This document shows positions 25,941 through 26,519 of a DNA stretch of 64,000 nt, one piece after another; the stretch's first letter is position 1; every line of letters begins with the position of its first letter. The translations under genes and the position numbers were made by a program. The notes under the pieces were generated by a model. The model saw nothing but the letters and a program-made list of their open reading frames with translations. It made no database searches and was not told the origin of the DNA. This stretch comes from a virus: IMG/VR virus record IMGVR_UViG_3300037743_000223, positions 1 to 64,000 of that record, one strand, 5' to 3'.

Positions 25941-26446
25941 GCAGCGACCCGTGTGACTGTGATGTGCGGTGTCCCCACGGGGACCGGTGCATAGGTGGCC
26001 ACGCCAACTCGCCCGGCTCCCGCTGGTGGCACTGCGACACGTGCTCTCCGCCGACAGCGGTGACCTACCTGCTGCGGTACCCGGAGGGGCAGGTGCTGGC
26101 GGTCGTGTCCGGTTGCCGGCACGCGCTCGGGCCGGGCCGGCGGGCTGAACTGCACCGGAAGATGGTCGAGCACGTCCGGGCCTGCCCGGACGCCAACGCC
26201 GCAGCGGGTGACGCCACGCCCGGGTGCGTAATGCCGGCCCCGGCTATCTCCGCTCGGTGGTACCGTCAGAGAGCACCTCCCGGTGCGAAGCCAGTCGGAT
26301 ACTTCTCTCGCAAAGAAACCTATCCGGCAGGCGCCCCTGATCTCGGGAGTGGCCACAACTTCAGATGCAGGTGCCCGGTGCGTAGGCGGCGGATACTTCC
26401 CTTTGGAGGAGCGGGTACGGGTTCGAGTCCCGTCGTCCCTGCCTAG
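25937..26446 (+). CDS. Cys-rich hypothetical protein; 3' third of ORF overlaps Y-RNA-like genes and looks non-coding
   Basis: GTGA overlap at 25937; GC3 falls sharply after about 26260 yet the first in-frame stop is TAG 26444-26446 inside the tRNA-like domain. Confidence 0.45.
   Translation: MSSDPCDCDVRCPHGDRCIGGHANSPGSRWWHCDTCSPPTAVTYLLRYPEGQVLAVVSGCRHALGPGRRAELHRKMVEHVRACPDANAAAGDATPGCVMPAPAISARWYRQRAPPGAKPVGYFSRKETYPAGAPDLGSGHNFRCRCPVRRRRILPFGGAGTGSSPVVPA
26274..26351 (+). ncRNA. Y-RNA-like ncRNA, short form (YrlB-like)
   Basis: Stem 26274-26282/26344-26351 with bulged C, conserved internal loop GTGCGAA / TGATCT, helix 26290-26301/26321-26332; paralogous to the stem module of the downstream element with compensatory changes. 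Confidence 0.55.
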
Positions 26447-26519
26447 CAGGGACGTAGCTCAACCGGCAGAGCAGCTACGTCTCCGCAGCCGACTTTGATC
26501 TCGGGCACCAAGCATCTGA
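26361..26519 (+). ncRNA. yrlA: Y-RNA-like ncRNA with circularly permuted tRNA-like domain (YrlA-like)
   Basis: Helices 26361-68/26512-19, 26370-77/26502-09, 26385-93/26482-90. T-arm ACGGG-TTCGAGT-CCCGT (26417-33), closed acceptor stem (26434-41/26447-54), D-arm GCTC-AACCGGCA-GAGC (26457-72). Directly upstream of TROVE gene. Confidence 0.7.

What the first reader, a model, noticed from the sequence alone, without database searches (positions are those of the whole stretch)
26274..26519. Phage-borne pair of Y-RNA-like ncRNAs (short form plus tRNA-like form) upstream of an Rsr/Ro60 gene
Directly upstream of the TROVE-vWA gene lies an element containing tRNA parts in circularly permuted order. 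First comes a T-arm ACGGG-TTCGAGT-CCCGT (26417-33). Next is an 8-bp acceptor-like stem closed by a loop (26434-41 / 26447-54). Then come UA and a D-arm GCTC-AACCGGCA-GAGC (26457-72). This whole unit is carried on a long stem formed by the 5' and 3' ends (26361-68/26512-19, 26370-77/26502-09 and 26385-93/26482-90 with one mismatch). That is the published architecture of bacterial YrlA-type Y RNAs, which partner Rsr, and not of a tRNA gene. A shorter paralogue precedes it at 26274-26351, with the same stem module but a simple hairpin apex. Between the two copies the internal loop is conserved (GTGCG-A on the 5' side, TGATCT on the 3' side). Helix positions change in a compensatory way. Examples are T-A to G-C and C-G to T-A in the lower helix, and C-G to G-C twice in the upper helix, with the mismatch kept at the same position. 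Y RNAs next to Ro60 orthologues are established for bacteria and have been reported computationally for some phages. Their role in a temperate phage is unexplored. Options include recruiting an exoribonuclease to reshape host or phage RNA, or countering tRNA-targeting defences.
Basis: partly seen in the sequence, partly recalled or inferred. Interest (0 to 1): 0.75.

Follow-up and report, generated by a model that had tools for sequence, protein, structure and literature searches.

The report
Two Y RNAs upstream of phage Ro60
Just upstream of a phage Ro60 (Rsr) gene lie two conserved small-RNA genes, a short hairpin and a tRNA-like form; this is a well-supported but ordinary new example of the known bacterial and phage Y RNA–Ro60 partnership.

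Summary
Window 26361-26519 (+) folds as a long bulged stem. That stem carries a V hairpin, a T arm, a 7-bp (up to 9-bp) acceptor-like hairpin, U8-A9 and a D arm. Window 26273-26353 (+) is a shorter paralogue with the same stem module.

Covariance models built only from relatives, with the window left out, hit the two elements at 136.5 bits (E about 1e-32) and 80.4 bits (E about 2e-15). Both hits are on the + strand, and nothing else in the 64 kb matches.

The long element is present at 70 bits or more in 143 of 160 Rsr loci from Actinomycetota genomes and viral contigs, always on the rsr strand. Covariation is strong. It includes the tRNA Levitt 15:48 pair, kept in 73 of 75 sequences.

Rfam YrlA scores only 32.2 bits against a cut-off of 69. 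The whole clade falls below that cut-off.

YrlA-type Y RNAs next to rsr were reported for 254 bacteria and 22 phages in 2014. Two Y-like RNAs upstream of a phage Ro60 were characterised in 2025. This is therefore a new member of a known kind.

Side findings:
- a conserved hairpin before the start codon that sequesters the ribosome-binding site
- a −10-like promoter element
- tRNA finders that mis-call related Y RNAs as tRNAs

The parts
26258..26266 (+). Candidate extended -10 promoter element TGgTACCGT. It predicts a transcription start at about 26272-26274, which is the 5' end of the short RNA.
   Evidence: A TANNNT hexamer peaks 19-21 nt upstream of the CCGGTGC motif of the first module in 35 of 122 distinct array starts, and the same pattern is visible in alignment A1. 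The E. coli-type consensus scan finds nothing here. This part is inferred.
26273..26353 (+). Short Y RNA, of the YrlB/Yrn2 type. Its parts are the lower helix 26277-83 with 26342 and 26344-49 (U26343 bulged), the Ro-site core GGUGCGAAG 26282-90 opposite CCUGAUCUC 26336-44, the upper helix 26290-99/26323-32 with an A·A mismatch at the fourth pair, and the apex 26300-22, which starts with UACUUC.
   Evidence: Model R2, built from 47 relatives without the window, hits 26271-26355 (+) at 80.4 bits, E = 1.9e-15. On alignment A5, 93.8% of cells pair against 85.1% in shuffles, with 60 compensatory cells against 18.8.
26354..26367 (+). Conserved A/C-rich linker CACAACUUCAGAUG between the two RNAs. Its 3' half is the 5' strand of the basal stem of the long RNA. 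It is a candidate processing site.
   Evidence: The sequence is nearly identical in many relatives. Mycobacterial RNase E cuts immediately 5' of cytidines (PMC10641625). The processing role is inferred.
26361..26519 (+). Long tRNA-like Y RNA of the YrlA type. Its parts are the basal stem 26361-68/26512-19 and the lower helix 26370-78 with 26500 and 26502-09 (U26501 bulged). The Ro-site core is GGUGCGUAG 26377-85 opposite UUGAUCUC 26495-02. The upper helix is 26385-93/26482-90.
   Evidence: Model R1, built from 50 relatives without the window, hits 26359-26521 (+) at 136.5 bits, E = 1.1e-32, with no other credible hit on either strand. Rfam YrlA gives 32.2 bits, E = 3.5e-5. On A3, 92.3% of cells pair against 76.4% shuffled and 41-48% slid. 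Flanks forming the basal stem pair at -15.7 kcal/mol against -7.5 for cross-paired flanks, p = 3e-21.
26396..26409 (+). V (variable-arm-like) hairpin CUUCC-CUUU-GGAGG, preceded by AUAC, the YUAY-type motif.
   Evidence: It is present in the MFE fold. Helix 3 of the consensus has two covarying apical pairs. Relatives have a 5-bp stem with a 7-nt loop CUNUUAA.
26417..26433 (+). T arm ACGGG-UUCGAGU-CCCGU. U26416 takes the place of tRNA position 48.
   Evidence: The T loop UUCRANU is found in 75 of 75 relatives. The stem covaries (GC 53, AU 15, CG 5 at one pair).
26434..26454 (+). Acceptor-like hairpin with 7 tRNA-frame pairs 26434-40/26448-54. The pairs G26441-C26447 and C26442-G26446 extend it.
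   Evidence: All 7 pairs covary among relatives and 95.6% of cells pair. The stem is 7-8 bp in 50 of 75 sequences.
26455..26472 (+). U8-A9 followed by the D arm GCUC-AACCGGCA-GAGC, with A14, A15, G18, G19 and A21 in their tRNA positions.
   Evidence: U8, A9 and the D stem are invariant in 75 of 75 sequences. The Levitt pair is G15:C48 in 38 and A15:U48 in 35 of 75; the window has A26462:U26416.
26524..26556 (+). Strong hairpin, 11 plus 3 pairs. Its 3' arm holds the rsr Shine-Dalgarno GAGGAG (26546-51), and UUCGC then AUG follow. It probably protects the 3' end or weakly terminates transcription, and it probably masks the ribosome-binding site.
   Evidence: Its energy is -24.6 kcal/mol, z = -4.2. 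In 68 of 82 distinct loci there is a hairpin of -10 kcal/mol or stronger within 45 nt of the start codon with an SD-like motif in the 3' arm. It does not meet a classical terminator consensus. The function is inferred.
26561..28156 (+). rsr, the Ro60 orthologue (531 aa; TROVE domain plus vWA with MIDAS motif DRSGS).
   Evidence: Pfam TROVE 2.1e-20. phrog_850 6e-47. Matches PDB 9KOP/9L5Y (phiLo Ro60) at 1.1e-24. 46-52% identical to 'Ro-like RNA binding protein' of cultured actinophages.

Best explanation
A self-contained Ro RNP cassette sits in a temperate-type actinophage or prophage. A promoter just upstream of 26273 is proposed to drive one transcript. That transcript holds a short Y RNA (26273-26353), a YrlA-type tRNA-like Y RNA (26361-26519), a hairpin that masks the ribosome-binding site, and rsr.

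The two RNAs would be released by processing in the conserved single-stranded linker. Each carries the same bulged helix (CCCGGUGCG-A-G opposite UGAUCUCGGG). This helix corresponds to the Ro60-binding site of Y RNAs, so both would bind the outer rim of the phage Rsr ring.

By analogy with Deinococcus, Salmonella and Thermus phage phiLo, the tRNA-like module of the long RNA would tether Rsr to a host 3'-5' exoribonuclease, PNPase. That specialises the nuclease for structured RNA. The short RNA would gate the Rsr cavity or recruit another partner. The pre-AUG hairpin would keep Rsr output low relative to the Y RNAs.

Shown here: sequence, structure, conservation, strand and linkage to rsr. Inferred: transcription start, processing, Rsr binding, PNPase tethering and translational masking.
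For: Match to independent models:
- Models built from relatives without the window match both elements on the + strand only.
- R2 also aligns the stem of the long element, with a 71-nt insertion. The two RNAs therefore share one stem module.

Distribution: full-length R1 hits of 70 bits or more occur in 76 of 80 genome loci and 67 of 80 viral loci. All 256 hits are on the rsr strand, and most end 30-40 nt before the start codon.

Covariation on structure-blind MAFFT alignments:
- Long element: 92.3% paired, 471 compensatory cells against 148 in shuffles, 0 of 500 shuffles as high.
- Short element: 93.8% paired against 85.1%.

tRNA-like tertiary signature: the Levitt 15:48 pair is kept in 73 of 75 sequences by switching between G:C and A:U. 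U8, A9, A14, G18G19 and the T loop are canonical.

Rfam: YrlA is the top hit, full length, E = 3.5e-5.

Partner gene: a Ro60 orthologue.

Non-coding: codon-position GC periodicity is lost across 26120-26600, with a spread of 0.11-0.14 against 0.35-0.48 inside rsr.

Literature:
- YrlA lies next to rsr in 254 bacteria and 22 phages. M. smegmatis YrlA and YrlB are both upstream of rsr and come from one precursor (PMC4201824).
- Thermus phage phiLo has two Yrl RNAs upstream of its Ro60. They bind it and form ternary complexes with host PNPase (PMC12135203).
Against: - No expression, binding or processing data exist for this locus.
- Rfam YrlA is below its gathering score (32.2 against 69 bits).
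- The published GNCGAAN0-1G motif is matched only approximately: UGCGAAG in the short RNA and UGCGUAG in the long one.
- The V arm is truncated to a tetraloop compared with relatives.
- The pre-AUG hairpin has only three U residues after it, so termination is doubtful.
- The -10-like element is found at the conserved distance in only 35 of 122 array starts.
- Thermodynamic folding does not tell the strands apart (-83.8 against -81.8 kcal/mol). The strand call rests on the models, on G·U pairs and on the tRNA loop motifs.
Confidence: 0.8

Rival explanations
1. The 290-nt region is only a structured cis-acting 5' leader of the rsr mRNA, for example an Rsr-binding autoregulatory operator or attenuator. 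It is not a source of stable trans-acting RNAs.
For: It lies directly upstream of rsr on the same strand, apparently with one promoter. It ends in a conserved hairpin that buries the Shine-Dalgarno sequence in 68 of 82 loci.
Against: In some relatives, full-length copies lie downstream of rsr or more than 1 kb away (L141, L143, L150 and Arthrobacter phage Atuin). Arrays of 2-4 modules are common, seen in 85 of 160 loci. A complete tRNA-like fold with conserved tertiary pairs is not needed for an operator. Homologous RNAs in M. smegmatis, Salmonella and phiLo are stable Rsr-bound species (PMC4201824, PMC12135203). A leader role for the last hairpin can coexist with the main explanation.
Confidence: 0.08
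2. The main role of the tRNA-like RNA is as a decoy or substitute substrate for host tRNA-targeting defences such as anticodon nucleases, or for tRNA-modifying enzymes. Rsr only stabilises it.
For: The element is a near-complete tRNA mimic. In cultured actinophages rsr sits inside tRNA gene clusters (also L010 and L153). Relatives have an anticodon-loop-like V loop, CUNUUAA.
Against: The window's own V loop is a tetraloop with no anticodon-like loop, and the window has no tRNA genes. The same RNA type occurs in many non-phage bacterial rsr loci. No defence-related evidence was found.
Confidence: 0.07
3. It is a degenerate or permuted tRNA gene, or a tRNA-derived attP remnant linked to the nearby integrase.
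For: T arm, D arm and acceptor-like stem are present. Rfam tRNA gives a weak hit at 26376-26441 (21.9 bits). A serine integrase gene lies 2.6 kb downstream.
Against: ARAGORN finds no tRNA and Rfam tRNA is below its cut-off of 29. The element is conserved with rsr in 143 of 160 loci, whereas the integrase and the other neighbours are not conserved. The acceptor stem is closed by a loop, and the place of the anticodon stem is taken by the conserved Ro-type stem.
Confidence: 0.02
4. The structures are chance hairpins in G+C-rich non-coding DNA.
For: The window is 71.5% G+C. Both strands fold about equally well.
Against: Independent models give E about 1e-32 and about 2e-15. There is extensive compensatory change.
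Confidence: 0.01

Closest known systems
YrlA-type bacterial Y RNAs (Chen et al. 2014, RNA 20:1715, PMC4201824; Rfam RF02553)
   Same: Encoded next to rsr on the same strand. The 5' and 3' ends form a long stem with a Ro-site motif. A YUAY-type motif, V arm, T arm, acceptor-like stem-loop and D arm follow in that order, with Levitt 15:48 covariation. As in M. smegmatis YrlA, the acceptor-like stem has 7 bp.
   Different: Scores 32.2 bits against the Rfam cut-off of 69. The Ro-site reads UGCG(U/A)AG instead of GNCGAA(N)G. The V arm has a tetraloop. In M. smegmatis YrlB lies between YrlA and rsr. Here the short RNA comes first.
Short Y RNAs: S. Typhimurium YrlB, M. smegmatis YrlB, D. radiodurans Yrn2 (PMC4201824)
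   Same: A second, smaller Rsr-type hairpin RNA encoded beside the tRNA-like one. It is a long hairpin with the Ro-site motif and a pyrimidine-rich apex (UACUUCUCUC).
   Different: No sequence homology could be tested because no Rfam family exists. The short RNA here is clearly a paralogue of the long one that lacks the T, acceptor and D core. It has no T arm, whereas M. smegmatis YrlB has a possible one.
Thermus phage phiLo Ro60 with Yrl1 and Yrl2 (NAR 2025, PMC12135203; PDB 9KOP, 9L5Y)
   Same: A phage-encoded Ro60 with two Y-like RNAs immediately upstream. The stem-bulge-stem design has a CGAA-type motif. The Rsr here matches phiLo Ro60 at E = 1e-24.
   Different: The host phylum and G+C content differ. 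That paper's main text never mentions YrlA and mentions tRNA only twice (term counts), so whether Yrl1 or Yrl2 has a tRNA-like domain could not be established from the passages read. Binding and PNPase complexes were shown there and not here.
Vertebrate Y RNAs and Ro60 (Stein et al. 2005, as cited in PMC4201824)
   Same: A conserved bulged helix near the paired termini. The 5' strand GGUGCGAAG resembles the GGUCCGA contacted by Xenopus Ro60.
   Different: Vertebrate Y RNAs have no tRNA-like module, and the bulge geometry differs. The comparison with the vertebrate sequence beyond GGUCCGA rests on memory.

Membership tests
YrlA-type Y RNA (criteria of Chen et al. 2014) | Encoded within about 4 kb of a Ro60 orthologue, on the same strand | tested here: met
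   The element ends 42 nt before the rsr ATG on the + strand. The same holds for all 256 model hits in 160 loci.
YrlA-type Y RNA (criteria of Chen et al. 2014) | Motif GNCGAAN0-1G near the 5' end, within a stem formed by the 5' and 3' ends | tested here: inconclusive
   The stem is present and covaries. The motif reads UGCGUAG in the long RNA (5 of 7) and UGCGAAG in the short RNA (6 of 7). The clade consensus is UGCGCAG. The CG-A-G core is kept, and GGUGCGA resembles the vertebrate GGUCCGA.
YrlA-type Y RNA (criteria of Chen et al. 2014) | T arm and D arm with tRNA-invariant nucleotides, separated by an acceptor-like stem-loop | tested here: met
   UUCGAGU T loop with a G53-C61 equivalent. D loop AACCGGCA with A14, R15, G18G19 and A21. 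U8 and A9 are present. The 7-bp acceptor-like stem covaries at all 7 pairs.
YrlA-type Y RNA (criteria of Chen et al. 2014) | Levitt 15:48 tertiary pair kept by compensatory change | tested here: met
   G15:C48 in 38 and A15:U48 in 35 of 75 relatives. The window has A26462:U26416.
YrlA-type Y RNA (criteria of Chen et al. 2014) | Conserved YUAY motif leading into a V stem-loop upstream of the T arm | tested here: met
   Relatives have UUAC-UUC followed by a 5-bp stem with a 7-nt loop. The window has AUAC-UUCC and a 5-bp stem with a 4-nt loop at 26396-26409. The first base is a purine in the window.
YrlA-type Y RNA (criteria of Chen et al. 2014) | Stable RNA bound by Rsr, with tRNA-type modifications (pseudouridine 55, dihydrouridine) | not testable with these tools
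   Needs RNA-seq or northern blots, immunoprecipitation and modification mapping.
Rfam RF02553 (YrlA) | Score at or above the curated gathering threshold of 69 bits | tested here: not met
   32.2 bits, E = 3.5e-5, full model 1-114, at 26390-26505 (+). There is no hit at gathering level in the window or in 19 related loci.
Ro60/Rsr protein | TROVE domain followed by a vWA domain with a MIDAS motif | tested here: met
   Pfam TROVE 2.1e-20. DRSGS...GGTQT...VTDEQ in the C-terminal part. Matches phiLo Ro60 structures at 1.1e-24 and phrog_850 at 6e-47.
Short Y RNA (YrlB/Yrn2 type) | Long hairpin formed by the termini, carrying the Ro-site motif and a small pyrimidine-rich apex, encoded beside the tRNA-like Y RNA | tested here: met
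   R2 hit at 80.4 bits. The helices covary. The CGAA motif is at 26286-89 and the apex is UACUUCUCUC. Homology to the published YrlB or Yrn2 sequences was not tested because no model or sequence was on hand.
tRNA gene | Detected by ARAGORN, or Rfam tRNA at or above 29 bits, with a standard cloverleaf order | tested here: not met
   ARAGORN finds none in the window. Rfam tRNA gives 21.9 bits. The order of arms is permuted and the acceptor stem is closed by a loop.

The most novel reading that the evidence does not exclude
The cassette may be a mobile, self-regulating Ro RNP unit. The conserved pre-AUG hairpin, which buries the rsr ribosome-binding site right after the Y RNA array, would couple Rsr synthesis to Y RNA transcription, processing or Rsr binding. 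In addition, the 7-bp acceptor-like stem would be cut by host RNase P and receive CCA, as in M. smegmatis. The prophage would then supply a split, tRNA-like Y RNA that rewires host RNA decay or tRNA-directed defence during lysogeny.
Probability: 0.12. Interest if true: 0.6.

Novelty: new member of a known kind. Interest (0 to 1): 0.3.

Why it matters
The element adds a well-defined pair of Y RNAs and a Ro60 gene to a temperate-type actinophage. It also shows that this cassette is almost universal next to rsr in Actinomycetota and their viruses, in 143 of 160 loci.

The practical points are about annotation:
- The Rfam YrlA model misses this whole clade.
- Gene callers can place ORFs across the RNAs.
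- tRNA finders read the 5' half of related Y RNAs as tRNA-Arg or tRNA-Asn.

Biologically, the cassette offers a tractable system for asking what a Ro RNP does for a phage or lysogen. It has a proposed promoter, two RNAs, a hairpin that masks the ribosome-binding site, and rsr. The underlying concept is already established.

Tried and rejected
- **Rfam at gathering level.** No hit in the window or in 19 relatives. The family assignment therefore could not rest on Rfam alone.
- **ARAGORN.** No tRNA or tmRNA in the window.
- **Megablast of 24000-30000 against cultured phages.** No match. The source phage has no close sequenced relative in that collection.
- **Consensus promoter and terminator scan.** Nothing found. 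This was expected for 71% G+C DNA and does not settle the question.
- **Exact-protein look-ups of Rsr.** Two start choices were tried and neither is on record, so the source organism is unknown.
- **Conservation of neighbouring genes.** None is conserved with rsr. No partner gene such as rtcB or PNPase is linked.
- **Encoded CCA after the acceptor-like stem.** NCC follows the 7-bp stem in only 13 of 75 sequences. I dropped the idea that CCA is generally encoded.
- **Strand choice by folding energy.** Not informative.
- **NCBIfam.** No match for Rsr or its neighbours.
- **Supplementary tables of Chen et al. 2014.** Not held. I could not check whether close relatives of this element were already listed there.
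Full report
**Observation.**
- The T arm ACGGG-TTCGAGT-CCCGT is at 26417-33.
- A perfect 8-bp hairpin lies at 26434-41/26447-54.
- UA follows at 26455-56.
- The D arm GCTC-AACCGGCA-GAGC is at 26457-72.
- Three nested stems are formed by the flanks: 26361-68/26512-19, 26370-77/26502-09 and 26385-93/26482-90. The last has one G·A mismatch.

The shorter copy at 26273-26353 shares CCCGGTGCG-A-G on the 5' side and TGATCTCGGG on the 3' side. The MFE fold of 26355-26525 reproduces the long stem, the acceptor-like hairpin and the D arm (-83.8 kcal/mol, z = -4.6). 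The short copy alone does not fold significantly better than shuffles (z = -1.8).

**Setting.** The window is 71.5% G+C and looks like a phage or prophage throughout. It holds a tape measure, a tail protein, DNA helicases including a DnaB-like replicative helicase, a methyltransferase and an FtsK-like protein. It also holds an amidase and a GmrSD-like nuclease, and a large serine recombinase at 29141-30595. No close DNA relative exists among cultured phages.

The gene at 26561-28156 is a Ro60 orthologue:
- Pfam TROVE at 2e-20.
- phrog_850 at 6e-47.
- A MIDAS motif DRSGS in the C-terminal vWA part.
- E = 1e-24 to the solved Ro60 of Thermus phage phiLo.
- 46-52% identity to 'Ro-like RNA binding protein' genes of Gordonia, Streptomyces and Arthrobacter phages.

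Codon-position G+C periodicity is strong inside rsr and absent across 26120-26600. The ORFs that formally span the RNAs are therefore not supported. These are 25760-26446, 26283-26498 and the TTG-start extension from 26495.

**Database tests.** At gathering level Rfam reports nothing in the window and ARAGORN finds no tRNA. In a local E-value search YrlA (RF02553) is the best hit. It covers 26390-26505 on the + strand over the full model at 32.2 bits, E = 3.5e-5, well below the cut-off of 69. A weak tRNA hit of 21.9 bits covers 26376-26441. Nineteen related loci also give no YrlA hit at gathering level. The Rfam model simply does not reach this clade.

**Comparative evidence.** I fetched 160 loci that encode relatives of the Rsr protein. 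Eighty come from Actinomycetota genomes and 80 from viral contigs, with best identity 77%.
- A plain pattern for 'T loop followed by D arm' is present in 127 of 160 loci. It is always on the rsr strand and mostly 90-140 nt upstream of the start, as in the window.
- Alignment of whole upstream regions shows the same layout in relatives: short element, conserved linker, long element, hairpin, ATG.
- On a MAFFT alignment of 75 long elements, the RNAalifold consensus has the lower helix, upper helix, V hairpin, T arm, acceptor-like stem and D arm.
- Counting pairs on that alignment gives 92.3% standard pairs, against 76.4% in shuffles and 41-48% when partners are slid. There are 471 compensatory cells against 148, and 0 of 500 shuffles reach the observed values.
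- All seven acceptor-like pairs and all eight upper-helix pairs show changes on both sides.
- The flanks that form the outer stem pair far better with their own partner than with flanks of other loci (-15.7 against -7.5 kcal/mol, p = 3e-21).
- The 47 short elements give 93.8% pairing against 85.1% in shuffles, and 60 compensatory cells against 19.

**Independent models.** To avoid circularity I built covariance models from relatives only.
- R1 (50 long elements) hits window 26359-26521 on the + strand at 136.5 bits, E = 1.1e-32. It finds nothing else credible in 64 kb on either strand.
- R2 (47 short elements) hits 26271-26355 at 80.4 bits, E = 1.9e-15. It also aligns the stem of the long element with a 71-nt insertion at 52.5 bits. 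The short RNA is therefore the long RNA without its T, acceptor and D core.
- Across the 160 loci R1 gives 256 hits, all on the rsr strand. Full-length hits of 70 bits or more occur in 76 of 80 genome loci and 67 of 80 viral loci.
- By pattern, 50 loci end in the same short-plus-long arrangement, and 85 have two or more tandem modules.
- R1 also finds the element in cultured phages: Gordonia phage VanLee at 113 bits and Streptomyces phage pSt2308 at 58 bits, both upstream of the Ro gene, and Arthrobacter phage Atuin at 81 bits downstream of it.

**tRNA mimicry.** With the acceptor-like stem in the tRNA frame, the window has U8, A9, G10-C25, A14, A15, G18G19, A21 and a T loop UUCGAGU. Among 75 relatives U8 and A9 are invariant. 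Position 15 covaries with the base before the T stem: G:C in 38 and A:U in 35. This is the Levitt pair that Chen et al. used as evidence for a tRNA-like fold. The window has A26462 and U26416. The acceptor-like stem is 7-8 bp in 50 of 75 sequences. That is the length Chen et al. gave as the likely reason M. smegmatis YrlA is cut by RNase P, and in vivo that RNA is cleaved and acquires a CCA end. An encoded NCC after the stem is not general, at 13 of 75.

**What is known.**
- Chen et al. 2014 (PMC4201824) reported YrlA-like RNAs within 4 kb of rsr on the same strand in 254 bacteria and 22 phages. They described the GNCGAAN0-1G motif, YUAY, and the V, T, AS and D arms. They also showed that M. 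smegmatis YrlA and YrlB are both upstream of rsr and come from one precursor.
- A 2025 study (PMC12135203) found two Y-like RNAs upstream of the Ro60 gene of Thermus phage phiLo. It showed binding to that Ro60 and ternary complexes with host PNPase.

The finding is therefore a new member of a known kind. It differs in four ways:
- The Ro-site variant is UGCG(U/A)AG. Its 5' strand GGUGCGA resembles the vertebrate GGUCCGA.
- The V loop is a tetraloop.
- The order is short RNA first.
- The element fails the Rfam cut-off.

**Likely mechanism.**
- *Shown:* two structured, conserved, non-coding elements share one stem module, are tightly linked to rsr and lie on its strand. The long one mimics tRNA down to a tertiary pair.
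- *Inferred from the studied systems:* both RNAs bind Rsr through the bulged helix. The tRNA-like module tethers an exoribonuclease, most likely host PNPase. The short RNA gates Rsr or recruits another partner.
- *Inferred from conservation (promoter):* a -10-like element TGgTACCGT at 26258-66 would start transcription at the 5' end of the short RNA. A TANNNT hexamer sits at the conserved distance in 35 of 122 array starts.
- *Inferred from conservation (linker):* the conserved linker CACAACUUCAGAUG is a plausible processing site, given that mycobacterial RNase E cuts 5' of cytidines.
- *Inferred from conservation (hairpin):* the hairpin 26524-26556 (-24.6 kcal/mol, z = -4.2) holds the Shine-Dalgarno GAGGAG in its 3' arm. 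A comparable hairpin exists in 68 of 82 distinct loci. It would protect the 3' end of the Y RNA and hold down Rsr translation relative to the RNAs.

The neighbours of the cassette are not conserved. The cassette therefore behaves as a portable unit.

**Rivals.**
- *A pure cis-leader.* This does not fit copies found downstream of or far from rsr, arrays of up to four modules, or the tRNA-grade tertiary conservation. The last hairpin may still act in cis.
- *A tRNA-decoy role.* This cannot be excluded. The window's V loop is not anticodon-like, and the window carries no tRNA genes.
- *A tRNA gene or attP remnant, or chance structure.* Both are rejected.

**Verdict.** The finding is real, correctly interpreted and strongly supported by comparison. 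It is already covered in concept by published work. Interest is modest. It rests mainly on annotation gaps and on the conserved regulatory layout of the cassette.

Noticed in passing
window 26524-26556 (SD 26546-51, ATG 26561): A strong hairpin right before the rsr start codon holds the Shine-Dalgarno sequence in its 3' arm. A comparable hairpin is present in 68 of 82 distinct related loci, often followed by UUUUC. This suggests attenuation or translational masking that sets the ratio of Y RNA to Rsr.
   Followed up: partly
window 26258-26266: An extended -10-like element TGgTACCGT lies 7 nt before the short RNA. A TANNNT hexamer sits at the same distance in 35 of 122 array starts in relatives. 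No -35 element is evident.
   Followed up: partly
window 26354-26367; same position in L081, L082, L083, L084, L004: The linker CACAACUUCAGAUG between modules is conserved in sequence, not only in pairing. It may be an RNase E-type processing site, since mycobacterial RNase E cuts 5' of C.
   Followed up: no
L161:904-975 (Gordonia phage VanLee, NC_073474.1 65454-65525); L034:2810-2885: The RefSeq feature 'tRNA-Arg(tct)' of VanLee lies inside a full-length YrlA-type element (L161:891-1053, 113 bits). An ARAGORN call 'tRNA-Asn(gtt)' in L034 lies inside another (L034:2801-2965, 149 bits). tRNA finders read the V arm as an anticodon arm, so some phage 'tRNAs' next to Ro genes are probably Y RNA halves.
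   Followed up: partly
L162, L163, L010, L153, L140: In several cultured and uncultured actinophages the Ro gene and its Y RNAs sit inside large tRNA gene clusters. The window itself has no tRNA genes.
   Followed up: no
Window and 19 related loci: Rfam RF02553 (YrlA) detects none of these actinobacterial or phage elements at its gathering score. A clade-specific model finds them in 143 of 160 rsr loci, so standard annotation misses this whole group.
   Followed up: yes
A3/A4 columns about 39-60; window 26396-26409: In most relatives the V arm is a 5-bp stem with a 7-nt loop CUNUUAA. The loop is anticodon-loop-like, with a U33 equivalent and purines 3' of the triplet. The window has a CUUU tetraloop instead.
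   Followed up: partly
window 26388/26487 and 26293/26329: Both copies carry a non-Watson-Crick pair at the fourth position of the upper helix (G·A and A·A). That position is unpaired in 30 of 75 relatives, which hints at a functional irregularity and not at decay.
   Followed up: no
window 26000-26239: This stretch shows a codon-position G+C signal (0.90 in one phase). It fits either the + strand ORF 25760-26446, which would run into the Y RNAs, or the 50-aa ORF 26065-26217 on the - strand. No family match was found for the + strand ORF 25760-26446; the 50-aa - strand ORF was not searched. The signal is unexplained.
   Followed up: no
window 14282-15580 (-) and 16059-18344 (-): A protein with a GmrSD C-terminal nuclease domain plus helix-hairpin-helix, and an FtsK/SpoIIIE-like protein, are encoded on the opposite strand. 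They lie between the lysis genes and the rsr cassette and may be accessory or defence genes of the prophage.
   Followed up: no
L020, L056, L071, L102, L140, L153 and others: Some loci carry arrays of three or four Y RNA modules upstream of rsr, such as short-long-long or long-long-long-long. By pattern, 85 of 160 loci have at least two.
   Followed up: partly
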